NCBI GenBank assembly: GCA_964016885.1
Contig: OZ024742.1
Span: 242,668,001 to 242,732,000, forward strand
Length of the DNA stretch: 64,000 nt
Direction: 5' to 3'
From: Eledone cirrhosa
Lineage: Eukaryota
In this document: piece after piece, positions 7,834 through 64,000 of the stretch
Position numbering within the stretch: the stretch's first letter is position 1
Layout: every line of letters begins with the position of its first letter
Notes under the pieces: model-generated
Database searches by the model: none
Seen by the model: the letters and a program-made list of their open reading frames with translations, nothing else
Told to the model about the DNA's origin: nothing
Program-made: the position numbers and the translations under genes

Positions 7834-9781
7834 TTACCTTACTTCTCGTAGAGGAAGGATAGTTTCTCCATCCTTTTCACTGCTTTTGGCCTCCTCCGGA
7901 AGGATGTCCTTATAAATCCGCCTGGAGAGTCCTTGTCGGAAGTCTCCGATGTCTTTGGGGAATTTTTGTTTTAGTGTCGTGTACGTTTTCTGTGTAATGC
8001 GAGTGATTTGTATGTGTGGAGGTGGTGTGAAATTTTGGGTTGTTGTGTAGTCTTTTTCTGTGATGCTGGTGTTGTGTTGGATGTAGTGTAATAATTGGTT
8101 GTTCAAATTTAATGCTGTGTAGTGTGTATCGTTTTGGTTGTTTTGTTTTGTTTGCGTGTTGTGGGTTTGTTTCTGTTTCGCTTTTTGGTGACTTTTGTGG
8201 TGTTGGTGATGGTGGTGTTGGGGTTAATGATGGTTATGGTGTTGGTGTTTGTGGTGATGGGGTTGGTGATGCTGGTGTGGATGGCGGCATATCTATCCTA
8301 ACCTTTTTGTTTGATAGTTTATTTGTTTCCCTCTGTATTTTGTTTTTGGAGGTGGAGGAAAGAGAATTTTTTTTCTTTTTTGGTTTCTTTTTTTCTTTTT
8401 GCCTGATACTGTTTCCCACTCCTCGTCGTCACAATCTGTCTCCAGTTGTGATAGGCCGGGGACTTGAAAATCCTCCACAGGCGTTGGTTTTGGTTGTGGC
8501 GTGGTGGATGGTGTAGGAGCTGGTGCTAGTTCTGGCGCGTTGGGTGGTGGTGGTGTTGGTTTTGCTACTGTTGCTGGGATTGTTACTGTTACAGTTGCTT
8601 CTGTTGTTGCTGCTACAGTTGTTGCTGCCATTTTTGCTGCGGGTGGTGTTGATGGTTGAGTCACTGGGGTAGGTAAGAGAGGTGGCCCCAACCTTTTAGC
8701 TTGAGGGCAGAAAGCCCTTAGGTGGGTTCCTTCACCACAAACGACACACCTAGGCCTTCTGCCCTCGACGATTGCGGTGAGGTGGCTGCCGTCAGTGAGG
8801 TCTATTACCTCTGGGATCTCCTCAATGCTTTTTTGATCCGCTTGGATCAGGAGCTCCATCCCAGATCCGGACCAGTTCTCCTGCTTTTCTTTCGCTATTT
8901 CGATTATCTTGGTGTTGGCTTGGATGCCGGCGAGGACGGCAGCTATTAGCCAAGGAATTTCGATGGCCGGTGGAACGTGGCTGAGCCTGATCTTCACGAG
9001 TCTCTGGCCACAATAGCTTGGGACGAATGTGATGTCGTCACTTCTTAATGGGGCCATGGAGTGTTCTCTGGCCTCCTGTGGTGTTTCAAAGAACACGTCC
9101 ACGGTTCCATACTTCTGCCCACGTCTGATGTGGGGGTTTTTTGCCCACACATGTCCCAAAGCTTCTTGGATTTGAGACTCGGATGCCCGTTCCACTCGGC
9201 GCGATTTTATATTAATTATTCGATAAGACACGGTGCATAGGCGCCGATGCTCTATTTTATTAGGTGGGGGTGAGACTGACCCTGTACCCATCTTTCTTTA
9301 CCGTTTTTTTGGTTTCTTCTAATTCCTCCTGAGTTACCTGAAATGCTTCGCACTGTTTTGCTACTCTGGCAAAACTCAGGGTGGTTTTCTTAATGTCATT
9401 GTTGCTGTTGTTGTTATCGTTATTTTTGTTATTATTAATTTTTGTTTCAGTTGTGGTGGTGGTGGCGTCAGTGGTGTTCGGTGTGGAAGAGTTCATTTTG
9501 GTTGAATGCATTTCGATATCACGAGTTAATTTATTTTTTTCTTTTGTTTCTATTGTCGCGGTGGTGGTGGGGGTGGTGGTTGTCGCGGTGGTGGTGGTGG
9601 TGGTGGCGGCTTTAACACCTGCAGTCATTGGTAATGGTGGGAAATGAATGTCTGCCTGAGACAAATTTAAAATATTGCTACTGCTTATATCTTTAGTGTT
9701 GGCAAACGTAGTAATATTTACAATGGTGGTGTCGGTGTGAGGTGTTAGTTTGGGAGAAAGGATTGACTCTGAATCAGCCAT
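7834..9781 (-). pseudogene. Tx1-A1 ORF1 (zinc-knuckle RNA-binding protein), frameshifted
   Basis: Fragments 9260-9781, 8293-9291 and 7834-8106; CCHC knuckle CVVCGEGTHLRAFC; T/P-rich linkers. Confidence 0.8.
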
Positions 9782-9996
9782 GATGTTTCAAAGAAAAATT
9801 TTTGTTTGATAATTATAAAAGTTTAAATTTTGGGCTCAAGTCCCCCAATCTTTTTGTGTGTCCTATTCGGAAAACAATGTATGTGCATTTATATACATTT
9901 AACAATAAAAAATTTCCATAAATGGAAATTTTAAACAAATGAAAACAACAAACCTTTGCGGAGCTCACGATGATACGATTTACTACGTAGGTCGCC

Positions 9997-33914: not shown

Positions 33915-34347
33915 TGTGTGTTTCTAATTACGTGATATCTTATGTCAGCAAAATTGTCATCAGATGATATTTCGATGATTTCCTTGTTCCAAATACTTTT
34001 TAATTAATTGTCGTAGATAATTTATTATATGCACTTTTTTGTTCTATTTGTTTGTTTGTTTTTTGGGGTGGGGAGAGGTTTCGTGTCTGCAACAGGATTC
34101 ATTCTCGCGTAGGTGCATTGTTAATCTGTGGTTATGATAACTGTATAAGTTAGCTATGTGACGTCAACATCTGTCAAGTTTGAACTTGAAATGATATGTT
34201 AGCATTGTACAATGTAGATACCACTTTTGTTTTTAAACTCAATCCTGTGAGACATCATTATCATTAAGATAAAAGATAACAGCTTAACTTAGAAAAAATA
34301 ATGCAGGTTTGGAAAAAGTATTCGAAAAGCATTGCTCTATAATAATT

Positions 34348-34745
34348 GTTTCTACGTTTGGCACAAGGTCAGCAATTACCCATCGACGCCGTAAGGATGA
34401 AAGGCAAAATTAACCTCGGCGGGATTTGAACTCAGATCATAAAGACCCGTAACTCTATGATGCAAAGCATGGCGTCCGACCCTCTACAGATACTGCCAAT
34501 CCACCACTCAATAATAAGGGTTTCTTATATAAGCACAAGGCCAGCAATATTGGTGGGAGGGGAAAGTCGATTAAAACTACCCCAGTGCGTGACTGGTACT
34601 TTATTTTATCGACTCCGTAAGGATGAAAGGCAAAGTTAACCTCGGTGGGATTTGAACTCAGATCATAAGGGGGGGGGGTAACTCTATGCTGCAAAGCATG
34701 GTGTCCGACGCTCTACCGATTCCGCCAATCCACCGCCCTCCACCG
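34348..34745 (-). mobile_element. Two tandem tRNA-derived SINE copies (34348-34508, internally deleted; 34519-34745)
   Basis: A-box-like head, B-box GAGTTCAAATCCC, central CTTTGCCTTTCATCCTTACGG (Meta-domain-like), tail CCTTGTG..AGAAAC. Confidence 0.85.
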
Positions 34746-35109: not shown

Positions 35110-35325
35110 GGGTAGTGGATTGGCAGTACCGGTAGAGCGTCGGGTACTATGCTTTGTGGCATATAGTTACGGCCCTTTACATTCTGAGTTCAAATCACAT
35201 CAAGCTTAGCTTTGCCTTTCATCCTTACGGGTTCGATAAAATCAAATACCAGTAAGCACTGGGGTCGATTTAATCGGCTCTCCCCTTCACTTCAAATTGC
35301 TGGCCTTGTGCCTAAAGTAGAAGCA
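35110..35325 (+). mobile_element. tRNA-derived SINE
   Basis: Same head, core and tail motifs. Confidence 0.85.
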
Positions 35326-35548
35326 ATTATCATTTCTTCCTTGGAGTCAATATTCGACAGTGGTTTATTTAAAACTGAAAGACAAATATGTTAAGTTTAT
35401 CGCACCTATTTTTCATCATATAACAGTCATTCGGGACAATAGTACAGTCACAATAACAATTATTTAAGTGCTAGCTGTTACAGGTAAGTAAGCATGTTTG
35501 TAAGTATGTAAATAAATATCTAAGTGAATAAACAGGTAAGTACAAGCA

Positions 35549-36234: not shown

Positions 36235-36414
36235 TCCCCCCCCCCCACACACCAATAATTGAATTGCTCACAGGTGCTATTTTTGGAACTAATTTCTTCA
36301 TGGAGATAACAAATTTGTTCCAATTAGATTTAATATATAAGAATAAATAAAAGTGGAAGTCTATTGGCATTGAAGGGTAGTCTGGTCAACCTAACTAAAC
36401 TAAAATTCATCTAT

Positions 36415-36592
36415 TAGTAGATTGGTAGTACTGGTAAATGGTCGGACGCCATGCTTTGCAGCATAGAGTTACGGCCCTTTATGATCTGAGTTCAAATCCT
36501 GCCGAAGTTAACTTTGCCTTTCATCTTTACGATAAAATAAAGTACCAGTAATGCACTGGGATAATTGCTGGCCTTGTGCCAAAAGTAGAAAC
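36415..36592 (+). mobile_element. tRNA-derived SINE
   Basis: B-box GAGTTCAAATCC; tail GCCTTGTGCCAAAAGTAGAAAC-AATT. Confidence 0.85.
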
Positions 36593-36834
36593 AATTAATT
36601 GTCTTGCTTTCGTTTTATAACTACTGTACCACTTAACATTTCTTGCTTTGAGTATGGATAATGGTGTGTAAATTGACTTCAGTGCTTAATATAATAAAAG
36701 AACTTCATCTTCTTCTTCTTCTTCTTCTTCTTCTTCTTCTTCATTTCTTATTCTTATTCTTCTTCTTTTTCTTTGTCTTCTTCTTTTTCTTCTTCTTTTT
36801 CTTCTTTTTCTTCTTTTTCTTCTTCTTCTTCTTC

Positions 36835-37881: not shown

Positions 37882-37946
<65 letters not shown>
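37882..37946. repeat. (TATC)n microsatellite, insertion site of the Tx1-B tandem
   Basis: Directly visible; resumes as ATATCTATCT at 43781 and 49186. Confidence 0.92.
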
Positions 37947-37947
<1 letters not shown>

Positions 37948-38171
37948 CCTACCAGACGTGTGTAACTTCGCGGAGAAGTTTCCGTTAATTTATGTAAGAA
38001 AAAAACGTGAGTTTTCAGTTAAATTTTATATTATTGTGTAACTTGACCCCCGTCTGGATCTTCAGGTGGTGGGTCAACTCATTTTCGCCCCTACAGGGGC
38101 GAAATATTTGTTTGAAAAATATTTTCTCCATCGAATTTTGGAAAAAATATAGTAAGAAGTTTGATTACCTT

Positions 38172-40075
38172 ATGAACGCTGCGTTCAACGATAATGGTGG
38201 TGGAGAGTCGGTAAGACTACAAAGCTCGCAGTCAACATCGTCTTCTTCCCTAGATACTATGGAGATGGAAAGACGAAATGAAAATGTAAAAACAAATTCA
38301 TATCCAAACAACACAAATGACACCAAACAGTTCAATGACAACAAAAATAACAACAACACCAATAATGATGATAAAAACAACAATGACAACAACAACAAAG
38401 AAAAAAATAAAGACAACACCAATAACACCAGCATCAAAGACAACAACAACACCAAGGAAAATACGAATAATATCAACATCGGTGACAACAAGAATAACAA
38501 CAACAATAACAACAATAATGACAACACCACCAACACGGATTCCACAAAGAAACCAAAAAGCAGAGAAAGTTCAAAAAAAGGAGGAACTGATATATCTCGA
38601 CATAACAAATGCTGAACAACTTTTAAAGGACGCTAGGAGATATGTCACTTTCGAAAAAAATGGTGCTTTCAGCATCAATTCTCCGGTAGAAATTCGCAAG
38701 GAAACTGCTCTCAAAACGATAGTTTTTAGGACAGTTTCCAATTCTACCCGAAAACCAGTCCAATTGTCACAGAAAGAAATTGACTGGTTTTCAAAAATTC
38801 AATGAATGATATTGCATTCATTCAAAGAAGCAAACTTTTTGGGAGTATTTCGGTACTCATGAAGGATCAATTGACGGCCCAAAATTACTCTGTGTCGCCA
38901 ATTGTATCCAACCTGTACACCTTTTTCCCTACATACATAGGAAAAAGGACACAAAAGATCAGAATCACGAGTGTCACACCAAAGGTGAACATATGGTGGA
39001 TACTGTGCGGCTTCATCAATTTTGATGAAGACAGAATACTGTCAGTAGGAAAGTTCCCCAGAGATGTATTCAATGGGACTAGCATTGAAGTTCTGGTGCA
39101 AATGAGCCCAGAGGGAATAGCTATGATCCTTCAACGTGTACTCCTGGACGGACTCACCTACATAAACTTTTCGGTTGAGGGTAGGCGGCCTTCATGTTAC
39201 CATTGCTTTAGCAGGGGTCACCTGAGGGCTTCCTGTCCCAAATTAATGAATAAAAAAAGGCTCTTCTGCCGATACCCATCAAAACAACACAACCACCAAC
39301 ACCACCACAACAACAACACCAACACACAAAAATAACCACAACAAACACAGTCCCACCCAACCCCCACTCCACCTAAAACCACTGCAAAATCACATACAGA
39401 CACAACAGCTCCCCAAGACATACCCCTCCCCAATCACACAGACGATACAACAGATGAGGCTATCTCGCCATCACCCAGTGAAGATGAGGGAGAACGCCAT
39501 CGCTCGAAAAGAAAGAAAAGACATCACAAAAGCAAAAAACCAGCAAACACTACCACAAACATACAACCACCAACACAAACAACAAAAACATCACAAACAA
39601 AACCCCCACCTCCTGAAAACAAAATACCTACAACAAAACGAAAGCACACACAAGAACTACAGACAAAAACAAACACAACACAAGAAAATTACACTTACAC
39701 TTACATAAACACTGAAAACAAAACACTAATGGAGACCATCACGAACGACCCTTCGGTTTTCACCGAAGGGAAAACTTTCGCCCACTCTATTAAAAATAAC
39801 AAAAAATTGAACCTAAAACTGATTAGGGTCCCTATACAAACTTATAGGTCCCTAAAAGAAACATTTGAAAAGGATGTGGGGAATTCCTGCGTGAAACCAC
39901 TTAACCGCGTCCTTCTCAAATGTCTCCTCACCCCAGACACCCCCATCCCACCAGACCCCACCCCACTAAACATCTCCGTCCCCACCCCGCCGGAAACCAC
40001 CACCCACTCAGACAACCCCCCAACACCCCCATGGAAATCGTGCAGCCTGGTCCCCAGGAGACGAAGAGTGAGTGA
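38172..40075 (+). pseudogene. Tx1-B1 ORF1, frameshifted
   Basis: Fragments homologous to the intact ORF1 at 44003-45772. Confidence 0.8.
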
Positions 40076-40106
40076 TCTCTTCCTCTTTTAACTTTTCAGC
40101 ACCAAC

Positions 40107-43100
40107 ATGGCCAATAGAAGAGTTGGATGTGTGAACGTACGCGGCCTGGGAATGCCCTGCAAACAGGGCAAACTCTTAAACGACATCAGGTCGCACAGTA
40201 TGGATGTGGTAGCCATTTGCGAGTCCAGGATCCACAGCGAGCGACAGCTGGCCCCCATCTTCGATGACTTTGACATCTACGCATCTCTCTGTCAACCGGG
40301 GGGTGGGGGCGGAGTTGCCGTTTTGCTGCGGAAACACCTGGGCCTCGTAACACAGACGGTACATCTGGACCCGGAGGGTCGACTGGTGGTCCTAGACGTT
40401 GACGGTAGTGAAGGTGGAGCCTTCAGGCTGGTGGCTGCATAATCCCCATCCGCGACACCACGGCCAGACTTCTTCAAACGTCTAGAGACTTTTCTGGGAA
40501 CGTCCCGCTCCTTGCTTTTAGTGGAGGACTGGAATGGAATCCTAGATGCACGTTGGGACTATGTGGGAGCATGTCCCGATAAATGGGAGTGTAACAGCCT
40601 CAAATAGTTAATCGACCGATTTGACTTGACCGATAGATATCGACTAGATTTTCCGACTGTGCCACTGAGGACGTGGACTAATCGTAGCGGAACATCTAGA
40701 TCGTACCTAGATAGGGTTCTAGTTAGAAATAAGGATAGGGACATGTTAAGCTGTTCACAAATGTTCATGGTTGCCTATTCAGATCACAAACTAGTGACCT
40801 GCATGGCCAACCTTGATAGAACCCATAGACAAGGACCCGGCTACTGGAAGCTGAACTTGTCGTTACCGACAAGCAAAGCCTACAGTAGACGGATTAGCAC
40901 TTTAGTTAAACAGCACTTGACAGGGGCCATTGTCAACAACAGATGGTGGTACTCTCTCAAGAGGGCAGTTAGATTAGACTCGTTAGTTTTTAGTAAAGAA
41001 TTAGCGTTAGATAGAAATAGAACCGAGAAGGAACTGGTAGATAAAGTAGAAGAGGCAATTAGAAATGGCAACGTAGCCAGCGTGCTAGCAACGAGAACGG
41101 CCTTGGACCAGTTCTTCGACGCAAAGCAGGAGGGCTTCGTTGTCAGAAGCAAAATACGTGCTCTGGGAAACGAGGGAGCCAAAGCTGTTAGCTGGGCCCG
41201 AGTGATGGAGACAAAAAGTGGCAACAAGTCCACGATTCGGTCTTTGAAGGACCAAAACGAAAGCCTGATACGTGAGCCGAAGCAGATGTGTGCGGCCTTT
41301 CAGCGGCACTTTGCTCAACTATTCGGGCGGGGCGGCACGGTTGGAGGGGCTATGGATTTCGGTCTTTACCTCGACGGCCTACCGCGACTCTCGGACAGCG
41401 AGGCAAAGTTCTGCGAAAAGCCGATTTCAGCCTCTGAGATAGGGGACGCGCTGAGCCAATGCGGCAAACGCAAATCTCCAGGTCTCCACGGTCTACCCTA
41501 CGAATTTTACGTAGCAATGCCGGACTTATTCTCCGGTCTCCTGGAAGCGGTCTACTGCAACTGGCAACAGAACGGGAGAATTCCCAGTTCTGTAACCGGG
41601 GGCGTGGTCACACTAGTCAGGAAGGACGAGAATAAGGGGGATGACATAGGCAACTTCCGGCCCATAACTCTGCTAAACACAGAGTTACAGATTTGGGCCA
41701 AGGTGTTGGCAAAGAGGCTGGCGCTTGTCGTCAAGAACCTGGTGGGAGAAGCGCAGACATGCGCAATCCCGACCAGGTCCATACACGACAACCTCCACCT
41801 CATGCGATACATCATAGAGAGGGTATGGTGTAAACCCGGCTTCGGTGGGGCCCTGATCAACTTGGATCAGTCTAAGGCTTTCGATAGGGTTGACCATCGT
41901 TACCTGGATGCGGTGCTCGAGGCGGCAGGCTTCGGACCCGTGTTCAGGGGCTGGATTGCTGCAATGCACAACAGCAACATCTGCTCAAGCGTCAAGGTGA
42001 ACGGCTACCTCTCGGAGCCGTTCCATATTACGCGATCTATTCGACAGGGATGCCCTCTCTCCTCCCTTCTGTACGTACTGACTCTCGAGCCACTACTGCG
42101 GAAGTTGGAGCTATTGCAGGGCATCCCTCTGGAACCGGGACTGCGGAAAGCGGCGTCGGCCTACGCCGACGACGTGGCAGAAATGGTGTCGAGCGCCTCG
42201 CAAATCGAGGAGGTCGGCACCTTACTGAAGGAATACGAAAGTTTCACAGGAGCGAAGCTGAACCGGGACAAGTCCATCGGTTTGCAACTCGGATCATGGA
42301 GAGGCAAACCGATGCCTTCCGATGGCGTCGTCGGACGCTGGACGGAAGGACCGGTAAAGCTGCTCGGGGTCTGGTTTGGTCCGGACCTCCGGGTGGAGAA
42401 GAACTGGAACGAAGTGACGGCCAAGGTGTTTGCATTCACGCAGAAGTGGGCCGACTGCAAACTATCCTTGAAAGGTCGAGCGGAGGTGGAGAACACTTTT
42501 ATAGCGTCCGCCATCTACTACCGCTTGACCGTCGTGCCTTGTCCAGCCAAAACGCTCGCCAAAATGGAGCGTGCGCTCTTCCAATTCCTTTGGAAGAGGC
42601 GGGCTCCTTTGGTGAGAAGATCCATCTGCTACCAACACCCTTCTAACGGAGGGCTGGGGATGCCGTGGTTGACGATGCGCAAACACGCGCTCAGGCTGCG
42701 GCATCTCTACGTATTCCTCACCGGACAACCGGTGTAGGCCCCGTTCGTGAGGCGAGCCTTCCCACGACTCGTCTCGCTGACCGTGCTGCAGTCCTGGGTC
42801 AAGCAAAGACCGAGAAAAATGGGCGACTGGCACATCGAATGTGCTCAGGCGCTCACAGCCCTCTGGCAGGCGGACCTGGCGATCAGTGGAGACGCCACTT
42901 CGTCATTCTATAGAGGGTTGATCCGCAGCAAGTGCGACGACGCGCTCCGTGAAACTCTAGGCGTAGAGGAAGATGAACTGGCCAGTCTGTTCGGTAGGAC
43001 CTTCTGCCCGGGACCGATGGACAACTTCCAAAAGTCCCTGGCCTGGCAGTGCTACCGAGGAGCTCTACCAGTTCGAGACAAGCTCTACAGACATGGGCGC

Positions 43101-43542
43101 CCGGGCAGGGACCCCCCTGCAAAAAAGATCTGTCCGAGATGCGTGCGTAATGAAGAAACCGTCGCGCACGTATTCATACACTGTCCGGGCGTCACTGACC
43201 TGTGGGGCTATGTAGAACGACTATTGTCGCGGGTGGGACCAATCCGGTTGACCACCGAGTCCATTGTCATGATCAAACCGCCACCATCCTTCAAAAACGA
43301 AGGAGAGGCGGTTTTCCTTTGTGTGATAGCTATGGCGAAAGGGGTTGTATGGTGGACAAGGTTGAAAGGGCTGAGGTCAGACACTTTCTCTCCGGTCAAC
43401 AACTGATTCTTTTTTTCAAATACCACTTTGGAAGAAGAATCAGGATGGAGAGAGAGGTGCTGTACCCCAGCAAGTTTTATGAAAGGTGGGTGAAAGTGGC
43501 GAGAATGGCCCGAGTGGGCCTTCTCTCTATATCAGCCTGTAG
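40107..43542 (+). pseudogene. Tx1-B1 ORF2 (APE-RT-zf) with stops and frameshifts
   Basis: NVRGL, SYLDR, SDHK, NFRPITLLN, RQGCPLS, AYADD, CPRC..H..HC. Confidence 0.9.
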
Positions 43543-44002
43543 GTTGAGGAAAAGGAGGAGGAGAGGAAAGGAGTACAAACTCTTCGTACTCCTGGAGATG
43601 AGGGTTTCACATTTTTTCGCGGGTATGTGTTACCCATATGAACTGTCTCCCCCTATTGGGGAAAATCGACTAATTTTTTACATTGCATTTGTCATAACAT
43701 TTTACACGTTTTTATTGTATGTAAACTTCCCCCTTTGTATTTGTCCCCTTCTTTTGTGCCCCTGTGGCTAATAAAGAAACATATCTATCTCGTATAGTAT
43801 AGACGCGTATAACATCGGCTCCTGCCTTTTTGAATTTTTACCCATTGACAGTAAGTGTTTGTCTCTTTATTGTGTTGTCTTCGTGCCTTTTAACCACCCG
43901 GCTAGGTCTGTAGACGGGTGGTCATCGTATTTTTACCCCTTTTGGGGATAAAAACTACTCCAAAATATTTTTGCTGACTCACAATGGTAAAAAGTTGACG
44001 CC

Positions 44003-45772
44003 ATGTCTGCAGCACGTGTGGACGATAACGCCACGCTCACTAAGGAAGAAGAGAGAAAGAAGCAAGCGGTACAAAGCGTTTTGCTTTCTCGCGTCAACGT
44101 TGTAAAAGACTTGGTAAACGGCGATATGCCAGACAAACAATTAAATACGGGTGCAAACCCAATTTATTACAACTCAAACACTAACAATGACAAAACCAAC
44201 ACACCAAACGAGAAAGACAACAACAACAAAAATGAAAACAACTCAAATTACGAGAAACAAAACAATTCAAACACCAACAACGAAAACAAAATATCTTTTC
44301 CACAGACTGCTAAAATATCAGTCACATATGTGCTTGAGGATATATCAAATGCAAAAGAAATGCTTGAAAAAGCAAAAAAATATGTATCGTTTAGCGAAAA
44401 TGGATCTTTTTCCATCAATTCGCCCCCAGAACTAAAAAAACAGACGGAATTACGAACTGTTGTATTCCGTACAATTGCAAACAAAACAAAAAAACCAGCA
44501 CAACCATCTCAAGCTGAAATTCAGTTAGTCCTGAAAGAGGCTATGAAAGACATTATTTTCATACAAAAGGATAAACTCTATGGCAGTTTATCCATATTGA
44601 TGAAAGACGAATTGGCGACGAAAAAATACTCTGTGTCGCCAATTCGTTCCACACATTACACCTTTTTCCCCACCTACATGGGTAAAAAAAACCAAAGAAT
44701 ATGGATAACCACCATCACCCCAAACATAAATTACTGGTGGTTACTAACCGGTTTCCTCAACTTAGACGAGGATAACCTTATATCAATAGGGAAGGCATCC
44801 GGCGACGCGTTCAGTGGAACGAGCATTGAAGTTCTGGCCCAAATAAGGCCAGAACGTATCGCCCAAATCCCTGAGCGCGTCATGCTGGATTACCGTACCC
44901 ACCTCAACATTATTGTGGAGGGTAGGCGTCCCTCCTGTTACCTCTGTGGCAATAGAGGTCACCTGAGGGCTGCCTGTCCCCAGCTCACACCGAAAAAACC
45001 ATTGCTACCAACACCCCAACAACCAACACCCACACCTCCCCAACAACAACAACAAAAACAACCACAACAACAACAACAAAAACCAACAACACCACCACAA
45101 CAACAACAACAAATACGTGAAAAAACAACACAGAACACTGTCCCACCCAAAACAAATACAAAATCACACACACCGCAAACACTACCAGAAAACATACCCC
45201 TCCCACCCAACAAGGAAGACGAACACCTTTCGTCGCAAGACGAAAAAGATCCCTTCCAAATAGTAAAAAGAAAGAAGAGGAGGCGCACCACAGACACACT
45301 TATTAACATTAACCCTCCCCAAGAGAAAACAAACTATATACAAACCACCCCTCCCCGTCACACAACACTAACTGCTACGCAAAAAAAGACTTTACAATAT
45401 ACATACATGAACACAAACAAAGAACTAATGAACACAATTTCGTCAAACCCTTCGGTCCAAACTGAAGGGCCCAACTTTCTAACTGCTGTGGGACTACCTC
45501 ATTTACAAATGATTAAAGTCCCAATGAACTTATACAAAACGTTGAAAATAAATTTCACGGAGGACGTGGGCCGTCCCTGCTCCAAGCCAATCAACCGGGT
45601 CCTCCTAAAAAATTTCCCCACCCTCTACCCAGACACCCACTCAACCACAAACACCCCAACCCCACAACACACTGATGCCCCTACACTTCCACAAACCACC
45701 ACCCCACCCAACAACCCATCCCCAACCCTCATGGAAATTGAGCAGCCCGCTCCCCGGGACGCAGAGTGGTAA
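44003..45772 (+). CDS. Tx1-B2 ORF1p, 589 aa, intact
   Basis: Open frame; CYLCGNRGHLRAAC knuckle; N- and Q/P/T-rich linkers; basic NLS-like KRKKRRR. Confidence 0.85.
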   Translation: MSAARVDDNATLTKEEERKKQAVQSVLLSRVNVVKDLVNGDMPDKQLNTGANPIYYNSNTNNDKTNTPNEKDNNNKNENNSNYEKQNNSNTNNENKISFPQTAKISVTYVLEDISNAKEMLEKAKKYVSFSENGSFSINSPPELKKQTELRTVVFRTIANKTKKPAQPSQAEIQLVLKEAMKDIIFIQKDKLYGSLSILMKDELATKKYSVSPIRSTHYTFFPTYMGKKNQRIWITTITPNINYWWLLTGFLNLDEDNLISIGKASGDAFSGTSIEVLAQIRPERIAQIPERVMLDYRTHLNIIVEGRRPSCYLCGNRGHLRAACPQLTPKKPLLPTPQQPTPTPPQQQQQKQPQQQQQKPTTPPQQQQQIREKTTQNTVPPKTNTKSHTPQTLPENIPLPPNKEDEHLSSQDEKDPFQIVKRKKRRRTTDTLININPPQEKTNYIQTTPPRHTTLTATQKKTLQYTYMNTNKELMNTISSNPSVQTEGPNFLTAVGLPHLQMIKVPMNLYKTLKINFTEDVGRPCSKPINRVLLKNFPTLYPDTHSTTNTPTPQHTDAPTLPQTTTPPNNPSPTLMEIEQPAPRDAEW

Positions 45773-45796
45773 GTGCCTTTTCTCCTTACCACCAAC

Positions 45797-48700
45797 ATGG
45801 CTGTGCTGAGAGAAGGGTGTCTAAATGCGCGTGGCCTGAGCTCACCTTGGAAGCAAGCAATGCTTCTAAATGACTTCAGGTCACGATCTATAAATGTGAT
45901 GGTTATCTGCGAGGCCCGGATCAGCAACATGCGACAGCTAGACCCCGCCTTTGATGACTTTGAGATGCACGCATCTCTCTGTCAGCCCGGAGGTGGGGGT
46001 GGGCTTGTCGTTCTGCTGCAAAAACATCTGGGTCTCGCCACACAGATAGTTCACTTGGACCGAGGGGGTCGACTGGTGGTGCTGGACCTTGGCAGTGGTG
46101 AAGGTGGAGCCTTTAGGCTGGTAGGCGCATATGCCTCTTTTGGGACAGAGCGGCCCGACTTTTTCCAGCGTCTGGAGTCTTTTCTAGGGACGTCCCGTTC
46201 TCTGCTTTTAGTGGGGGACTGGAATGGTATCCTGGATGCACGTTGGGACTATGCAGGGGCATGTCCCGATACATTACCGGCAAGTAAAGCTTAGAGGGAC
46301 CGGATTAGTACGTTAGTTAAGGAGCGGTTGACTGGAGCGATCGTCAACAGCAGGTCGTGGATATCTCTAAAGAGAGAGATTAGATTAGTCTCGATAGAAT
46401 TTAGTAAGGTTCTAGCTGCGGATAGGAATAGGAAGGAAAGTGACCCGATAGATAGAGTAGAAGAGGCAATTAGAAGCGGCGACGTGGCCAGAGTGCTAGC
46501 GTCGAGAACGGCTTTGAGCCAGTTTTTCGACACGAAGCACGAAGGCTGCGTTGTCCGAAGTAAAATACGTGCTCTAGTGAACGAGGGGACCAAAGCTGTT
46601 AGCTGGGCCCGCGTGACAGAAGCCAAGAGTGGAACTAAATCCACCATCCGGTCTTTGCGAGACCAGGATGGACGGGCGATCCTTGAACCTAAGCAGATGT
46701 GTGAGGCCTTTCAAAGGCACTTTGCCCGATTGTTCGGAAGGGGCGGGGAGCCGTTTGGGGATGTGGACTTCGGTCCATACCTCGACGGCCTGCCGCGTCT
46801 CTCGGACAGGGAGGCGAAGTCCTGCGAGGAGCCGATTTCAGCAGCTGAGATAGAGGACGTGCTGAACCAATGCGGCAAACGCAAATCCCCGGGTCTCGAT
46901 GGTCTTCCATACGAACTATATCTAGCTATGCCGGACTTGTTCCCCGATCTCCTCGAGGCGGTCTACTGCAATTGGCAGCAGAAGGGGAGAATTCCCTGTG
47001 CTGTGACCAAGGGCGTAGTCACGCTAGTGAGGAATGACGAGAACAAGGGGGACGAAATAAGTAACTTCAGGCCCATAACTCTTCTAAATACAGAGTTACA
47101 GATTTTGGCCAAGGTGCTAGCAAAGAGGTTGGCGCTTGTCGTCGAGAACCTGGTGGGAGATGCGCAGACATGTGCTATCCCGTCCAGGTCCATCCATGAC
47201 AACCTCCACCTCATGCGATACATCATAGAGAGGGTTGGGAACGAACCCGGCTTTGGTGGGGCTTTGATCAACTTGGATCAATCTAAGGCGTTCGATAGGG
47301 TCGACCATGGTTACCTGGATGCGGTGCTAGCGGCGGCAGGCTTCGGACCCGTTTTCAGGGGCTGGATCACTGCTATGCACAGCAGCCGCATCTGCTCTAG
47401 AGTCAAGGTGAACGGCTACTTCTCGGAGCCGTTCGAAATCGCGCGGTCCTTCCGACAAGGGTGCCCTCACTCCTCCCTTCTGTATGTAGTGACTCTACAG
47501 CCACTGATGTGGAAGTTGGAGTTGTTGCAGGGCATCCCTTTGGAACCAGAATTGCGGAAAGCGGTGTCGGCCTACGCCGATCACGTGACAGTAATGGTGT
47601 CGACGGCCTCCGAAATCGGGGCGATCAGTACCCTACTGGAGGAGTACGAAAGGTTCACAGGGGCTAAGCTGAACCGGGACAAGTCGATCGGTTTGCAACT
47701 CGGCACCTGGAGGGGCAAACCGATGCCCTCCGATGGCGTCGTCGGACGCTGGACGGAGGGCCCGGTGAAGTTGCTCGGGGTCTGGTTCGGGCCAGACCTC
47801 CAGGTGGAGAAGAACTGGGGTGAGGTTACGAACAGGGTGTTTGCACTGACCCAGAAGTGGGCCAGTTGCAAACTATCCCTGAAAGGTCGGGCGGAGGTGG
47901 CGAACACCTATATAGCGTCCGTCATCTACTACCGCCTGACCATCGTGCCTTGCCCAAGGGAATCCCTCGCCAAGATGGAGCGCGCACTCTTCCAATTCCT
48001 TTGGAAGAAGCGGGCTCCTTTGGTGAGGAGATCCATCTGCTGTCAACACCCTTCAAAAGGAGGGCTGGGGATGCCGTGGCTAATGATGCGTAAACACGCA
48101 TTAAGGCTACGGCACCTCCACGTAATCCTCACCGGTCAACCGGTGTGGGCCTCGTTTGTGAGACGAACCTTTCCCAGACTCGTCTCACTCACCGAGCTGC
48201 AATCCTGGGTCAAGCAAAGACCGAGAAAACTGGGCGCCTGGCACATTGAGTGTGCCCAGGCGCTCACCGCCCTCTGGCAGGCGGACCCGGTTATCAGTGG
48301 AGACTCCACCGCGACATTCTATAGAGGGCTGGTACGCAGCAGGTGCGACGACGCCCTCGGACAAGCCCTAGACATGGAGGAAGACGAACTGGCCAGCCTG
48401 TTCGGTAGGACATTCAGCCTGGGACCTATGGACAACTTCCAGAAGTCCCTGGCCTGGCAGTGCTATCGAGGGGCTCTACCCGTTCGAGAAAAGCTCTACA
48501 GACACGGGCGCCCGGGTTGGGACCCCGCCAAAAAGATCTGTCCCAGATGCGTGTGCAACGAGGAAACCGTTGCACACGCATTGGTACACTGCTCGGGCGT
48601 AGCCGATCTGTGGGGCTATGTCGAACAACTGCTGTCAAGGGTGGGACCGATCCGGTTGACCATCGAGTCTATTGTAACGATCAAGCCGCCCCACCCCTTC

Positions 48701-48955
48701 AAAAATGAAGGAGAGGCGGCGTTTCTGTGCGTAAAAGCCATGGTGAAAGAGGTTGTATGGTGGACGCGTCTGAAAGGACTGAGGTCAGGCACCTTTCTCT
48801 CTGGCCAACAACTGGTCCGTTTCTTCCGATATCATTTCGGAAGAAGGATCAGGATGGAGAGAGAGGTGCTCCACCCCAGTCGTTTTTATGAAAGGTGGGT
48901 GAAAGTGGCGAGAATGGCCCGTGTGAATGGGCCTTCTCTTTACATCAGCCTGTAG
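45797..48955 (+). pseudogene. Tx1-B2 ORF2 with internal deletion of the endonuclease C-terminus
   Basis: Jumps at ~46270 over the region corresponding to B1 ~40580-40860 (YLDR/SDHK lost); RT motif altered to AYADH. Confidence 0.88.
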
Positions 48956-49320
48956 GTGGAAAAGAGGAAGGAACGAGTGAGCACCCTCTCTCTGTGCTGC
49001 TGAGGAGAAGGGGTTGCACACTTTTTTCGGGGGGGTGTGCGACCTCCCAAACGCTCTCTCCCTATTGAGGACTTTATTGTTAATTTTATATTTGTTATTT
49101 GTTTTCTTTACTCGCCTTTTTGTGTAAACTCCCCCCATTGTACTTGTCCCACTTTTTGATGCCCTGCTGGCAAATAAAAAAAAACATATCTATCTATAAT
49201 AGAAGGAAAGGGCAGGCAGTTTATCTGCCTGGTAGTCATGCCGAAAGAGGTCGCGTAGTGGACAGGTCTGAAAGGGTTAAAGACAAGCACTTTCCTCTTC
49301 GGCGAAGCGGTGATTAACTT

Positions 49321-58642: not shown

Positions 58643-58683
<41 letters not shown>

Positions 58684-58684
58684 T

Positions 58685-58757
58685 GTTTCTACTTTTGACA
58701 CAAGGCCAGCAATTACCCAATGCATTACTGGTACTTTATTCTATCGACCCCGGAAGG
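58685..58757 (-). mobile_element. 3' 70 nt of the tRNA-SINE fused to the Tx1-A2 3' UTR
   Basis: Reverse complement matches 36530-36592; followed on minus by (ATT)n at 58645-58684. Confidence 0.85.
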
Positions 58758-58983
58758 GTTTACATAAAGTAGACATTAAGGACAGTACAGGACAATACAG
58801 GACGGTACAAATGGGCATTTCTGCGTGTAAAAAACAAAAGCAAAGGATGTAACAAAAAATAACAATGAAATATTCCCCAATAGGGGGAGACTTCCGAGGG
58901 ACATTTGTGGCGAAAGCCCATTAAAAGGCCACAGTGACACTGACCACCAGGGCAAGTGCCCTCTCCCAGTTGTCCACCTTTAA

Positions 58984-61900
58984 TTTACAGACACATACTC
59001 AGAGTAGGCCCATTCACTTCTTGCTTCTCTCACCCATCTTTCAACAAAATGCTGGGAAGAGAGCACATCCCTCTCTACCCTGATTTTCCTTTTCAAATGA
59101 AATTTGAAAAAGTTAATCAGGGCATCACCGAAGAGGTAAGTGCTCGTCTTCAGCCCTTTCAAACGTTTCCAGCAGGTGTTCTACATAAACCCACAAGTCA
59201 GCAATGTTCGGACATTGGACGAGTGCGTGCGGGACGGTTTCGTCGCCCTGCGCGCATCTCGGACATGCCCGTAGAGTTTATCCTGAACTGGCAAAGCTCT
59301 TCGGTAGCACTGCCAGGCCAGGGTTTTCTGGAAGTTGTCCATAGGCCCCGGCCCGAAATTCTTCCGAATAGATTGGCTAGTTGATTTTCGTCGACGCCTA
59401 GAGTTTCCCCAAGTACGTCATCGCTCTTCCCCTCCACTAATCCTCTATAGAACGCCAAGGTGGAGTTTCCAGCGATCACATTGCCCGATTGGTCGAGAGT
59501 TATGAGCGCCTGAAGACATTCCAGTCCCCAAGCGCTCCCTCTCGGTCTTCGCTTGACCCAGGACTGCAACTCCGTCAAGGAGGCGAGCTGGGGAAAGACG
59601 CGTCTAGCAAACGGTGACCACACCTGATCACCATCGAGGAAGAGGTGGAGATGTCGTAGCCTGAGCACGTGCCTGCGCATCATCAGCCACGGCATGCCCA
59701 GCCCTCCACGTAGCGGGTGTTGACAGCAGATGGACTTCCTGACCATCGGAGCGCGTCCCTTCCCAAAAAAGCGAAAGAGCAAACGATCCAGCGCAGTCAG
59801 GCGGAGCTTAGGACAAGGTACGACGGTCAGGCGGTAGTACATGACGGACGCGATATACGCGTTAGCCACCTCCGCTCGACCTTTCAGGCATAGCTTCCTC
59901 TCCGCCCATTTCTGGGTGAGAGAAGCCACCCTGCTCGTCACCTCGTCCCAGTTTTTGTCCATCTGGAAGTCCGGACCGAAACAGACTCCTAGCAATTTTT
60001 CCGGTCCGTCCGTCCAGCGCCCGACGACGTTGTTGGACGGCATGGACCTGCCTCTCCAGGTGTTGAGTTGCAGGCCCACTGACTTTTCCTGGTTGATCAT
60101 TGCTCCTGTCACCGCTTCGTATTCTCTTAGTGTAGTGCCGATCGCCTCGATGTGCTTGGCGTTCGACACCACTACGGTGACATCGTCCGCATATGCTGAC
60201 ACGTATCTTCCGCGTCCTAGTTCGCGAGGGAACCCCCTCAACGTCTCCAGTTTGTGCAGTAATGGCTCGAGAGTCAATACGTACAAGAGGGACGAGAGGG
60301 AACATCCTTGGCGGACGGAGCGCATGATGTTGAACGGTTCCGAAAGGTGACCGTTCACTCTCCCCACAGAGCAGATGTCACTGTGCATGGCAGCGATCCA
60401 GCCTGAAGACGGGTCCAAAGCCAGCCGCCTTCAGGACTGCCGCTAGGTAACGATGGTCGACCATATCGAAAGCTTTCGACTGATCTAAATTGATCAAGGA
60501 CCCATCTGTGCCAGGTTCCCTAGCTACCCTCTCTGCGATGTATCGCATGAGGTGGAGGTTGTCGTGGATGGATCTGTCGGGAATGGCGCATGTCTGCGCC
60601 TCTCCCACCAGACCACCAACGACAAGTGCCAACCTCTTTGCTAGCACCTTGGCCAAAATCTTGAAATCTGTGTTTAGCAGGGTTATGGGCCTGAAATTAT
60701 CTATCTTATCCCTCTTGTTCGGATCCTTTCTCAGCAGCGCCACCGCTCCTCGGCTCACAGTGCTGGGAATTCTCCCATTCTGTTGCCAGTTGCAGTAGAC
60801 GTCCGCCAAGAGGCCTCCGAACAAGTCTGTCATCTGTACGTAATGTTCATAAGGCAGACCATCCAAACCAGGCGATTTACCCCTTGTGCAGCCAGTCATT
60901 GCCTCCCGTACTTCAGCGGCTGTTATCGGCTTTTCGCAACGTTCCGCCTCAGTGGCCGAGAGCCGCGGCAGTACGTCGAGGTAGACACTAAAGTCCATCC
61001 CTCGATCCGGCCCGCCGCTGCCCCCGAACAGCTGAGCGAAGTGTCGCTGAAAAGCTTTATACATTTTCCCGGGATCGAGTAGCATGCGCCCGTTTTAGTC
61101 CACCAAAGAGCGGATCGTGGCTTTGTTGCCACGACGCGCCTCCGCCATTCGAGCCCATTGAACGGCTTTCGTCCCCTCATGTCTGAGAGCACGCATCCTA
61201 GCTCCGACAATGCAGCCTTCGTGCTTTGCATTTAAGAATTGGTCAAGGGCCAATTTCGCCGCAAGTACGTCGGTGCCGATGCCTTTGCTAAGCGACTCGT
61301 CTAATTTTCTAACTAGTTCTCCCTCTGCTCTATTTTTCTCTATAGCTAAAGCCTTACTAAACCTAATTGACTCTATTCTAATTGCTCTTTTCAGAGCAAA
61401 CTACCACTTGTTGTTGACGATGGCCCCCGTCAACGTTCGCTTAACTAGTTCGCTAATCCGGTTTCTGTAGGCCTTGCACGCTGGTAAGGACGCGTTTAGC
61501 TTCCAGTAGCCGGGTCCTCGTCTATGAAGCCTATCTAAGTCAATCAAACAGATCCCGAATTTGTGGTCCGTGTAGCTGACTATCTTGAATTGTGGACAGC
61601 TTATGCTAGACATATCTATTTCCCTACAAAATACTCTATCTAGATATGATCTGGATGACCCTGTGCGATTTCTCCAAGTCCACATTGGCACATTCGGGAA
61701 ATCCAATCGGTACTTGTCAGACAGTTCAAAGCGCCTGAGCAGGTTGGTGAGGCTCTTGCACCCTCCTCCCCTATCCGCAAATCCCACACAGTCCCAGCGT
61801 GCATCTAAGATCCCGTTCCAGTCGCCCACTAACACTAACGAACGGGACGTTCCTAGAAAGGTCTCCAGACGCCGGAAGAAATCAGGCCGCCCTGCTCCTG

Positions 61901-62243
61901 TCGGGGCATAGACGGCCACTAGCCTGAAAGCTTGCCCGTCTCCGCTGGTCACGTCCAGCACCACCAACTTACCCTCTGGGTCCAGGAAGATTGCCCGTAT
62001 GGCGAGATCCAAATCTCTCCGAAAAAGCACAGCAACTCCTCCCCCCGATCCAGGACGGCTGGGAGATGCGTACACATCGTAGCCGCCGAAGATCGGTGCG
62101 AAGGCCCGTGCTTCGGAGATTCTGGTCTCGCTGATGGCCACTACATCTATGTTTAGTGACCTGAGATCGTTGAGCAGGTGGCCCTGCTTCCACGACGACC
62201 CCAAGCCACGCGCATTTATGCTGCCTATTCTGAGTGAGGTCAT
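58984..62243 (-). pseudogene. Tx1-A2 ORF2, frameshifted with C-terminal deletions
   Basis: ORF-track fragments 61401-62243, 60378-61085 and 59198-60418 carry APE and RT motifs. Confidence 0.9.
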
Positions 62244-62277
62244 GTTGAAATGGAGTGGAAAAGATGGGAAAGACCAC

Positions 62278-64000
62278 TTACCTTACTTCTCGTAGAGGAA
62301 GGATGGTTTCTCCATCCCTTGTCACTTGATTGTCCGGTGAAGGCACCGTTGAATCGTCCCTTCGGCTAGTCGTCGGCTCTTCTGTGAGTATATCCGAATA
62401 TACTCTCCGGTTGAGTGTCCCCCTAGGTCTCTGAAATCACCAACTAGGTTGGGGAATTTCATTTTAGTGTTTGTGTATTGTTTCTGTGCTATTCTTAGTA
62501 TTCTTATGTTCGTTGGTGTTTTGATTGGTGCTGGTATTATGTAGTCGTGCTGTGAAATGTCTGTGTGTTCAATTATGTAAGTCATTAGTTTCTTGTTGTG
62601 TGTATTTATTGCTGTGCATTTCTTTTTCTGGGGGTGGGGTGTGGTTCTGATATTTTCTTGTCGTTGTTGCTGGGTGTGTGTGTTTTGTTGTTGTGTTTGC
62701 GATGTTGGTGCTTGTGGTGGTGGTGTTGAAGGTGTTGTTGTTGTTGGCGGTGGAGTTGCCGCCGGTGGTGATGGTGGTGCTAGTGTGGGTTGTGATGGTG
62801 TTGGTGGTGTTGCTGCTATAAGTCTCTTTGCAGTAGCCTTTACCCTTTTTTCATTTCTTCCCTCCCTTTTCGAAGGCGACGATGCGCTGCTTCTGCGTTT
62901 GTGCCTTCTTGCGACCTTTTGCCATCCCTCTCCCACCTCATACTCCATGTCTGATTCTGTGAGGTCGGGGAGGGGTACCAGCTCCACTCTTTCACTTGTT
63001 CTTGTTGGTGATGGTTGCAGTGGAGTCTCTGTTGCAGCTGCAGTTGGTATTACTGTTGTTGTTGTTAATACTTCCACTGCTGCTGCTGTTCTTGATTTCC
63101 GTGGCGCGGGTAGGGTACAACCGACCTATCCTTCCTGCTTTCCGCCTGTCTTGTTGCTGGTAGCAATGGAGCCGGTTTCGGAAGGAGGGGTGTTTTCTCC
63201 TTTCTCAGGGTCTTCTCATTGCAGAAGGCCCTGAGGTGAGGCTTCGACCCACAGCGAAAGCATTTCGGGCGTTTGCCCTCAACACTTATGGGCTGTTGAG
63301 TGCCGTTATCGAAGTCTATCACATCCGGGATAGTTTCGATGCACTCCTGGTTGGTTTGAATTAACATCTCAATAGAGGTGCCTACCCAATCTTCTCGTAC
63401 TTTTTTCTGTACTTGCAGTACAGTTGTTTTGTCCTCGATTCCGACGAGGACAGACGCGACCAACCAAGAAGGGGCCATCTCGGGTAGGACGTGGGTCAGT
63501 TTGACCCTCATAATTTTTTCTCCGCAGTAGGAGGGCACCAACACCATTTCCTCTCTCCTTAGGGTCACTAAGGATTGAGCCTTTTCCTCCTGGGGTGTGG
63601 TAAAAAGCAAGTCCACGGTGGCATATTTCTTGCCTCGGGTGATATGCGTTTTCCGCTTCCACACAGACCCTAAGACTTTTTGTATTTGAGCCTCTGTGGC
63701 TCTTTCAACCCTACGGGATTTTGTGCTTACTGTGCGGTACGTGACCGTACAGTGCTATTGGGTTTCGAAATATTTTTCGGCTACCTTGCAGATTGCTCGG
63801 TGTCCGGTTTTCGTCACCATCTTCTTTGCTTCCTGTAATTCCTCATTTGTTATAAGGATGGTTTCCAGGTTCTTTGCGATACCTGCAAACGAGATTGGTT
63901 TTTCTTTCTTGTTGTTGTTGTTGTCGTCAGAGCTGCTGTTACTTTTGTTGTTGCTGCTGGTACTACGACTGCCGCCGCTGTTGATGTGGTTGTTGTTGTT
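62278..64000 (-). pseudogene. Tx1-A2 ORF1, frameshifted, incomplete
   Basis: Fragments 63065-63664 and 62322-63077 homologous to A1 ORF1. Confidence 0.8.

What the first reader, a model, noticed from the sequence alone, without database searches (positions are those of the whole stretch)
58645..58790. SINE-Tx1 chimera and shared 3' terminus: candidate SINE/Tx1 partnership
Seen: Tx1-A1 ends CCTTGTG-GTTAATAA-AGAAAAC-(ATT)n. SINE copies end CCTTGTG-N8-9-AGAAAC-(A)ATT (34348, 34519, 36592, 58685). In Tx1-A2 the last ~18 nt are replaced by the SINE's last ~70 nt, joined at an AAGG microhomology (58754-57), then (ATT)n. Known: many SINEs borrow the 3' end of their partner LINE, usually L2, CR1, RTE or I rather than Tx1. 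Inference: TPRT began on SINE RNA and switched template to Tx1 RNA, so Tx1 ORF2p may mobilise this abundant SINE.
Basis: partly seen in the sequence, partly recalled or inferred. Interest (0 to 1): 0.72.

Follow-up and report, generated by a model that had tools for sequence, protein, structure and literature searches.

The report
Abundant SINE shares Tx1's terminal hairpin
A very abundant short mobile element in this animal genome ends in a short sequence, predicted to fold into a small hairpin, that lines up with the ends of Tx1-type retrotransposons and inserts at the same ATTAT sites, so these retrotransposons likely supply the enzyme that spreads it, while the flagged fusion of the two is likely an ordinary later insertion.

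Summary
The full-length Tx1-type LINE ending at 58754 lacks its last 18 nt and is joined, through 4 shared bases, to the last 74 nt of a SINE. The template-switch reading is not favoured. I found six such joints, all different, against 6,858 intact Tx1 ends. The same joint occurs on an unrelated CR1-group LINE and between two Tx1 pieces, and one joint pairs an old Tx1 copy with a young SINE piece. A 5'-truncated SINE inserted into the (ATT)n tail with a small target deletion fits best. The partnership idea stands on other grounds. The SINE's last 25 nt match four of six Tx1 subfamily ends without gaps (14-18/25) and eleven other LINE ends poorly (3-11/25). Both carry a predicted CUUGU-loop hairpin with one flipped base pair. 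Both end at the same distance from it and make 10-22 nt target duplications starting ATTAT. The match is short, the LINE census incomplete and no assay exists. Tx1-driven SINEs are known (crocodilian SINEU), but a shared structured tail was not found in eight literature searches. New variant; interest 0.5.

The parts
58684..58757 (-). 3' 74 nt of a SINE of a young short-bodied subfamily (368 exact copies of its diagnostic 38-mer in the genome); 5'-truncated
58754..58757 (-). 4-nt microhomology (CCTT on the minus strand) shared by the Tx1 3' UTR and the SINE body
58696..58708 (-). SINE terminal hairpin region (5-nt loop CTTGT); this copy has one C-to-T change in the stem and is predicted to fold otherwise
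58645..58683 (-). (ATT)13 array: target microsatellite directly behind the SINE end
58754..64000 (-). Tx1-A2: full-length two-ORF L1/Tx1-group LINE with broken ORFs; lacks its last 18 nt; its 5' end lies about 600 nt beyond the window, in the (ATT)n tail of another Tx1 copy, with no SINE 5' half beside it
4126..9996 (-). Tx1-A1: related copy with intact 3' end, flanked by (ATT)n on both sides
4126..4150 (-). Tx1-A1 terminal 25 nt: predicted hairpin 4138-4150 (loop CTTGT), AATAAA signal 4132-4137, GAAA end motif
37940..43781 (+). Tx1-B, (TATC)n-flanked group; predicted terminal hairpin 43758-43768; best 25-nt match to the SINE end (18/25); start approximate
43790..49190 (+). Tx1-C, (TATC)n-flanked group, variant hairpin; bounds approximate
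34343..34507 (-). SINE copy, short form with a further internal deletion
34515..34745 (-). SINE copy, long form
35110..35330 (+).
36411..36597 (+). SINE copy, short form
19..68 (+). free-standing 5'-truncated SINE tail in ATT-rich sequence, with no Tx1 upstream

Best explanation
The SINE's last 25-40 nt line up with the 3' ends of this genome's Tx1-type LINEs and the SINE inserts at ATTAT sites with 10-22 nt duplications, so it is likely copied in trans by the ORF2 protein of the (ATT)n-targeting Tx1 group, and the flagged joint is likely a later 5'-truncated SINE insertion into the Tx1 copy's (ATT)n tail that deleted the last 18 nt of Tx1. Steps. (1) Shown: the SINE and Tx1 ends are colinear, and both stop at the same distance from the CTTGT loop, with target sequence following at once. 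(2) Predicted: this segment folds into a 3-4 bp stem with a 5-nt loop; one pair is G-C in the SINE and C-G in Tx1, and a neighbouring pair is A-U or G-C among Tx1 subfamilies. (3) Inferred, by analogy with L2 elements: ORF2p recognises the loop and starts reverse transcription at a nick in ATTAT. (4) Shown: the SINE has no AATAAA where Tx1 has it; inferred: a Pol III transcript does not need it. (5) Shown: (ATT)n tails collect further SINE and Tx1 insertions. Inferred: a small share of truncated insertions join upstream DNA through a few shared bases and delete part of the target, which gives this joint.
For: Partnership. End-anchored identity 14-18/25 to Tx1-A1, A3, B and D, and 11-13/25 to two Tx1 ends with a 1-nt indel; 3-11/25 to eight non-Tx1 ends and 3-10/25 to three more. 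Gapped alignment extends the match to about 38 nt for Tx1-B and D (p=0.003, 0.0005); eight non-Tx1 ends give p of 0.19 or more. Pair 2 is G-C in 100 of 108 short SINEs, C-G in 82 of 84 ATT-group and 44 of 45 TATC-group Tx1 ends; pair 3 is A-T in 71 and G-C in 8 of 84 ATT-group ends. The hairpin is in the lowest-energy fold of 3 of 3 Tx1 ends and 2 of 3 SINE ends. SINE duplications: 41 of 155 copies, 9-23 nt, median 14, 34 of 41 start ATTAT; swapped-flank control 0 of 90. ATT-group Tx1: ATTAT follows 66 of 74 ends, and 4 of 34 copies with a resolved 5' end show 11-18 nt duplications in non-repeat DNA. Joint. Six distinct deletion-type joints against 6,858 exact intact ends. The same search design gives 4 joints for Tx1-A and 1 for a CR1-group LINE whose ends are about half as common (3 versus 6 in 1.19 Mb). 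Tx1|Tx1 joints of the same kind in L011 and L218. L002: Tx1 part 17/308 differences, SINE part 0/81, p=0.03.
Against: The shared stretch is short and A-rich at its end. In an unanchored profile scan of 1.19 Mb, Tx1 ends made up only 6 of the top 45 of 123 non-SINE hits, and Tx1-A ends were not among them. Local alignment to Tx1-A1 and A3 is not significant (p=0.14, 0.09). The best sequence match is to the TATC-targeting group, while the target points to the ATT group; only 1 of 164 SINE ends is followed by TATCTA. The SINE hairpin is no more stable than shuffles (z from -0.7 to +0.6), and the covariation rests on two evolutionary events. Tx1 ends were picked with a pattern that covers part of the hairpin, so within-family conservation is partly built in. 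A young CR1-group LINE also ends in (ATT)n with the same polarity, so target polarity alone does not single out Tx1. SINEs sit in long (ATT)n arrays far less often than Tx1-A (25 of 155 versus 52 of 74 with three or more units). At the window's own joint the age test is uninformative (85/2114 versus 1/74, p=0.36); pooled over six joints p=0.012, but 0.24 without L002, and sparse sampling of Tx1 relatives inflates the Tx1 distances.
Confidence: 0.6

Rival explanations
1. Template switch: reverse transcription began on SINE RNA and moved to Tx1 RNA 18 nt from its end, so the whole 5.9 kb unit was inserted in one event.
For: All six joints fall within the last 18-28 nt of Tx1. The unit is flanked by (ATT)n on both sides. 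Ages of the two parts at this locus are not distinguishable. Template switching during LINE retrotransposition is documented (PMC4494074, discussion).
Against: The searches could only find joints within about 30 nt of the end, so their position is partly built in. The same joint is found on a CR1-group LINE. Old Tx1 with young SINE in L002. Short 5' overlaps are normal for truncated SINEs. Flanking microsatellite makes a duplication test impossible.
Confidence: 0.25
2. Another LINE mobilises the SINE, either the young ATT-tailed CR1-group family or an unsampled or extinct family (for example L2), and the likeness to Tx1 ends is chance or a relic of an earlier partner.
For: The CR1-group family is young (98-99% between copies) and ends in (ATT)n. 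The LINE census covers 1.19 Mb of random sequence plus targeted loci out of 3.0 Gb. L2 is listed for coleoid genomes (PMC8967140) but was not met here. The SINE stem has one pair flipped relative to every Tx1 sampled.
Against: The CR1-group end matches the SINE end at 3/25 and showed no target duplication in the five rows with a resolved 5' end (four insertions), whereas the SINE makes 10-22 nt duplications. None of 11 scored non-Tx1 ends approaches the Tx1 values. A designed SINE-hairpin-plus-AATAAA pattern found only 4 mutated SINE copies and no LINE.
Confidence: 0.25
3. Two-step origin of the joint: a full or truncated SINE first inserted normally in the (ATT)n tail, and a later repair deletion between the two CCTT words removed the Tx1 end, the array and the SINE's front.
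For: SINEs behind intact Tx1 tails are common: L003, L004, L007, L008, L018, L043, L176, L188, L271. A 4-nt microhomology marks the joint.
Against: It needs a second event in a young insertion, and 56 of 155 SINE copies are 5'-truncated anyway. It cannot be told apart from a deletion at insertion time in one genome.
Confidence: 0.15
4. The Tx1 copy inserted into a pre-existing SINE, or a Tx1 subfamily carries the SINE tail as its own end.
For: Tx1 pieces do insert into SINE tails (flank of the window), and Tx1-clade elements often target other repeats (PMC4494074).
Against: No SINE 5' half lies upstream of Tx1-A2. All six joints differ, so they are not copies of one master.
Confidence: 0.03

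Closest known systems
SINEU families with Tx1-Mar LINEs in crocodilians (Kojima 2015, PMC4494074; parts 1, 3 and 4 of 5 read)
   Same: SINE proposed to be mobilised by a target-preferring Tx1 group; shared target; tandem nesting of SINE and Tx1 copies.
   Different: SINEU has snRNA-derived heads and targets a Mariner transposon; the paper states that no LINE sharing the SINEU-1 3' terminus was found. Here the target is ATTAT/(ATT)n and the evidence includes a colinear 3' end with a predicted hairpin.
Kibi and Koshi (teleost Tx1-clade elements targeting (TC)n and (TTC)n) and crocodilian (TTCC)n/(TTTC)n-targeting Tx1 (as described in PMC4494074)
   Same: Microsatellite-targeting, two-ORF elements with an APE-type endonuclease; tandem arrays inside the repeat.
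   Different: Targets here are (ATT)n and (TATC)n; no partner SINE is described for them in that paper; phylogenetic placement next to them was not tested.
Stringent L1-clade pair in monocots, LINE1-1_ZM with ZmSINE2/3 (Ohshima 2012, PMC3472496; part 1 of 3 read)
   Same: L1-group LINE and SINE share a short conserved 3' end with a hairpin, conserved loop and compensatory stem changes.
   Different: Plant lineage, about 50 nt shared. [quoted passage not shown]
Stringent L2 systems UnaL2 and ZfL2 (Hayashi 2014, PMC4176376; abstract and passages read)
   Same: Loop identity matters while the stem can be exchanged; this is the model for how the hairpin would work.
   Different: Shown by experiment for L2 only; longer stem; nothing here has been assayed.
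Octopus tRNA-derived SINEs OK, OR1, OR2 (Ohshima and Okada 1994; seen only as citations in PMC4824008 and PMC4758252)
   Same: Very abundant SINE in a genome whose LINE protein has its closest named relative in an octopod; resemblance to this group is recalled, not tested.
   Different: No reference sequence could be compared, so the family name is open; none of the passages read names a partner LINE for these SINEs.

Membership tests
Tx1 clade non-LTR retrotransposon | Two ORFs; ORF2 with APE endonuclease, reverse transcriptase and C-terminal zf-RVT | tested here: met
   Pfam Exo_endo_phos, RVT_1 and zf-RVT on A1/A2/B/C pieces; closest solved structures of the endonuclease are L1 endonucleases; upstream ORF1 region
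Tx1 clade non-LTR retrotransposon | Sequence-specific targets such as microsatellites | tested here: met
   (ATT)n or (TATC)n on both flanks
Tx1 clade non-LTR retrotransposon | RT phylogeny grouping with Tx1, Keno, Kibi or Koshi rather than L1 | not testable with these tools
   120 listed homologues and 7 clusters carried no clade name; no named reference was available. The label Tx1 rests on architecture, target specificity and recall.
Stringent SINE/LINE pair | Shared 3'-terminal sequence | tested here: met
   14-18/25 end-anchored, up to about 38 nt with gaps; short, and weak without anchoring
Stringent SINE/LINE pair | Conserved terminal stem-loop with compensatory changes | tested here: inconclusive
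   Two pair exchanges and a conserved loop; the SINE fold is not more stable than shuffles
Stringent SINE/LINE pair | Same insertion signature | tested here: met
   ATTAT start and 10-22 nt duplications in the SINE; 11-18 nt in 4 Tx1-A copies; polarity also shared with a CR1-group LINE
Stringent SINE/LINE pair | No better-matching LINE in the genome | tested here: inconclusive
   11 other ends scored, none better; census incomplete
Stringent SINE/LINE pair | Tail-dependent trans-mobilisation | not testable with these tools
   needs a cell assay
Template-switch chimeric retrocopy | One insertion: a single duplication around the whole unit | tested here: inconclusive
   microsatellite on both sides
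Template-switch chimeric retrocopy | Both parts of equal age | tested here: inconclusive
   not met in L002 (p=0.03); no power at the window's locus (p=0.36)
Template-switch chimeric retrocopy | Joint specific to the partner RNA | tested here: not met
   same joint on a CR1-group LINE (one case, flanks not fetched)
RTE-mobilised SINE | RTE-like tail; duplication starting with T about 10 nt downstream of a T stretch (PMC6007223, abstract) | tested here: not met
   5-9/25 to RTE-group ends; duplications start with A in 95% of 41, and no T stretch near -10
tRNA-derived SINE | tRNA-related head with A and B boxes | tested here: inconclusive
   box-like words are visible in the head (consensus recalled); Rfam gave no tRNA match on one full copy

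The most novel reading that the evidence does not exclude
The dominant SINE of this genome (roughly 390,000 copies, extrapolated from 155 in 1.19 Mb) is spread by microsatellite-targeting Tx1 LINEs through a minimal CUUGU-loop hairpin. This would make it an animal SINE with a Tx1-derived structured tail and show that Tx1 elements recognise their RNA by a stem-loop, as L2 does, rather than by poly(A), as mammalian L1 does.
Probability: 0.5. Interest if true: 0.68.

Novelty: new variant of a known kind. Interest (0 to 1): 0.5.

Why it matters
SINEs make up 11.6% of one annotated octopus genome (PMC13282606), and the passages read name no LINE that drives them. A Tx1 partner would identify the engine of that expansion and explain why SINEs, Tx1 copies and (ATT)n arrays pile up together. 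It also bears on a standing question: whether L1-group elements began as stringent recognisers of a 3' structure and relaxed later (PMC3472496). A 13-nt hairpin with natural stem variants gives a small, directly testable substrate. The chimera itself matters little.

Tried and rejected
Laying contigs of four runs (at most two samples, one study) on 58080-59300 to look for an allele with the intact Tx1 end: no piece spanned the repeats at 58534-58694, so the test was uninformative; it showed only both parental continuations at 58754 and 58757. A duplication test around the whole Tx1-A2/SINE unit was impossible because of microsatellite on both sides. The one match (L204) is a plain SINE, not a joint, and was dropped; L200, L202 and L205 duplicate L006, L005 and L002 and were counted once. 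A search for a LINE with the SINE's own stem plus AATAAA gave 4 mutated SINE copies only. The 5' part of the majority line and the ungapped 4% figure are distorted by truncation and indels and were not used. The age script stopped on errors, so four of six intact-tail cases were not scored. Naming the clade through homologue names failed. Rfam found nothing for the SINE. The general repeat finder was swamped by microsatellites. Target polarity as stand-alone proof was rejected after the ATT-tailed CR1-group family turned up. Ends of several low-copy LINE families were not scored: a third Dong-like family, a CRE/Hero-like copy, a second BovB-like family, and L320/L321, L326, L327, of which L321 and L327 were seen by eye to end in CAA and GAAAT repeats.

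Full report
1. The observation. The window holds four L1/Tx1-group LINE copies with endonuclease, RT and zf-RVT domains in broken frames. Tx1-A1 (4126-9996, minus) and Tx1-A2 (from 58754, minus) share their 3' UTR (89% over 435 nt). A2 stops matching A1 18 nt before A1's end. The next 74 nt (58684-58757) are a SINE 3' end, the 4 bases at 58754-58757 belong to both, and (ATT)13 follows. The four SINE ends cited are present.

2. The whole element. The neighbouring 10 kb of G000 show that A2 is full length and begins about 600 nt beyond the window, directly in the (ATT)n tail of another Tx1 copy. No SINE front half lies there, so Tx1 did not insert into a SINE. Tx1 copies in this genome fall into an (ATT)n-flanked and a (TATC)n-flanked group, both forming tandem piles.

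3. How common is the joint? A DNA search (40 of 1,051 candidates scored, 30 loci read) and two gapped patterns gave six deletion-type Tx1|SINE joints, including this one: L001, L002, L005, L006, L201, L203. One further match was a plain SINE and was dropped. All six junctions differ. Intact Tx1-A ends number 6,858 by exact pattern. Exact patterns undercount both classes, but the joint is of the order of one in a thousand and is not a family. SINE pieces or whole SINEs behind an intact Tx1 tail are also seen (L003, L004, L007, L008, L018, L043, L176, L188, L271).

4. How the joint arose. Template switching and a later truncated insertion with target deletion give the same product, and the flanking microsatellite hides any duplication. 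Four observations favour later insertion. (a) The pattern design that found 4 Tx1-A joints found 1 on a young CR1-group LINE that also ends in (ATT)n but has no tail similarity; its ends are about half as frequent in the random sample (3 versus 6). This is one case and its flanks were not read. (b) Two Tx1|Tx1 joints of the same kind were seen. (c) In 1.19 Mb of evenly spaced sequence, 56 of 155 SINE copies are 5'-truncated, and 7 of 12 truncated copies with a duplication overlap the target by 1-4 nt, so the microhomology is ordinary. 5'-truncated L1 insertions with target deletions are described in PMC2912911 (passages). (d) In L002 the Tx1 part has no relative above 89% among the 39 others scored, of 4,813 candidates, while its SINE part belongs to a subfamily with 368 exact copies: 17/308 versus 0/81 differences, p=0.03. 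Against this, the window's own joint gives p=0.36, the pooled p=0.012 falls to 0.24 without L002, and Tx1 distances are inflated by sparse sampling. Public contigs could not show a pre-insertion allele. I put later insertion with deletion, at or after insertion, at about 0.7 and template switch at 0.25.

5. The shared end. Majority ends of 108 short-form and 25 long-form SINEs were compared with LINE ends cut from loci. Without gaps and anchored at the end, 25 nt match Tx1-A1 at 14-16, A3 at 16-17, B at 18 and D at 16-18 positions (shuffle p from 2e-3 to 5e-5). Two Tx1 ends with a 1-nt indel match at 11-13. Eight RTE-, Zenon-, CR1-, Dong- and BovB-like ends (labels from recall of motifs) match at 3-11 and three more CR1/L2-group ends at 3-10. 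With gaps the long-form SINE matches Tx1-B and D over about 38 nt (p=0.003, 0.0005) and A4 over 29 nt (p=0.007), but A1 and A3 not significantly. An unanchored profile scan does not separate Tx1 ends from background: 6 of the top 45 of 123 non-SINE hits. The homology is real only as an end-to-end match, and it points to the Tx1 lineage as a whole.

6. The hairpin. Around the loop CTTGT the SINE has C-G, G-C, G-C (94, 100 and 105 of 108). ATT-group Tx1 has C-G, C-G and A-T or G-C (80, 82, and 71 or 8 of 84). The TATC group has C-G, C-G, G-C (44, 44, 42 of 45) with a more variable loop. Pair 2 is thus flipped between SINE and LINE, and pair 3 is exchanged among LINEs. These are two events, and the Tx1 selection pattern overlaps the stem. 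The hairpin is in the lowest-energy fold of three Tx1 ends (z -1.9 to -2.4) and of two of three SINE ends, which are no more stable than shuffles. Tx1 has AATAAA behind the stem; the SINE does not. In L2 elements the loop is the specificity determinant and the stem can be swapped (PMC4176376, passages); that is the model assumed here, untested.

7. Insertion signature. SINE duplications begin at the first base after the core end: 41 of 155 copies, 9-23 nt, median 14, 34 of 41 starting ATTAT; control 0 of 90. ATTAT follows 66 of 74 ATT-group Tx1 ends, against a background of 0.3% of positions. Four of 34 ATT-group copies with a resolved 5' end show 11-18 nt duplications in non-repeat DNA; the others lie in microsatellite or show none. 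The ATT-tailed CR1-group family showed no duplication in four resolved insertions. The RTE signature of PMC6007223 (abstract) is absent. Only 1 of 164 SINE ends is followed by TATCTA, so the ATT group is the likely current driver, although the tail is closest to the TATC group; an ancestor of both may have donated it (inference).

8. What is known. The closest named homologue of the Tx1-A ORF2 is from an octopod (69%); the SINE's family name could not be tested. Kojima 2015 (PMC4494074; parts 1, 3, 4 of 5) infers Tx1-Mar as mobiliser of crocodilian SINEU from shared targets and reports no LINE sharing the SINEU-1 terminus. Ohshima 2012 (PMC3472496; part 1 of 3) found three SINEs with L1-clade tails among 58 pairs and discusses them for plants and a green alga; its supplementary table was not seen and may bear on novelty. 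Eight full-text searches and passages of PMC3747384, PMC4824008, PMC4758252, PMC8967140, PMC10294476 and part 1 of 3 of PMC13282606 gave no SINE with a Tx1-derived tail and no partner for octopus SINEs. Repbase, SINEBase and subscription papers, including the 1994 description of the octopus SINEs, were not searchable.

9. Verdict. The chimera is most likely a by-product of many elements using the same (ATT)n sites and says little about partnership. The partnership is a sound, moderately supported hypothesis (about 0.7 for Tx1 as driver, about 0.5 for hairpin-based recognition), apparently not in the open literature searched, and easy to test. New variant of a known kind; interest 0.5.

Noticed in passing
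window 317-4107 (+) and flank L031 (+): Two Dong/R4-like LINE families (label recalled) end in (AAT)n and sit back to back with Tx1-A in the same arrays, on the opposite strand; the one in the window has an open 1,216-aa frame. Several element families compete for one microsatellite.
   Followed up: partly
window 37940-49190 (+); L137-L165: A second, young Tx1 group targets (TATC)n and forms tandem piles; at least three subfamilies with variant terminal loops.
   Followed up: partly
L330-L338: Young CR1-group LINE (957-aa frames common, 98-99% between copies) with an (ATT)n end, a stem-loop-like inverted repeat before it and an internally repeated 3' UTR.
   Followed up: partly
window 9996 versus flank L031 near 1600: Tx1-A1 and A2 share ORF2 and 3' UTR (about 90%) but have unrelated 5' UTRs and very divergent ORF1 regions, suggesting 5' module exchange.
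   Followed up: no
window about 53100-57900: Broken LTR-retrotransposon-like element (integrase and RT matches, minus strand) with a repeated stretch at about 53200 and 57800; part of it is duplicated again at 58337-58540.
   Followed up: no
L105:340-402, L048:4280-4342: A 40-nt stretch that resembles the short SINE's end at about 30 positions lies inside another repeat family, not at a terminus and without an ATT flank; unexplained.
   Followed up: partly
L231 and L047 (minus); Tx1-A1 5' UTR near window 9800: The 5' UTR of the A1 subfamily contains a word that scores moderately against the SINE end profile; possibly chance.
   Followed up: no
L260-L289: The young SINE subfamily of the chimera is mostly 5'-truncated (about two thirds of 30 copies), more than the family at large; several copies sit in tails of other SINEs.
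   Followed up: partly
L196, L003, L045, L055, L073, L097: SINEs form head-to-tail arrays by repeated insertion into the ATTAT that follows a previous copy; 24 of 155 sampled copies have another SINE end directly upstream.
   Followed up: partly
L037, L053, L078, L103: An abundant RTE family ends in (GAT)n, and short copies of its 3' end are scattered through the loci; a possible second SINE/LINE pair.
   Followed up: no
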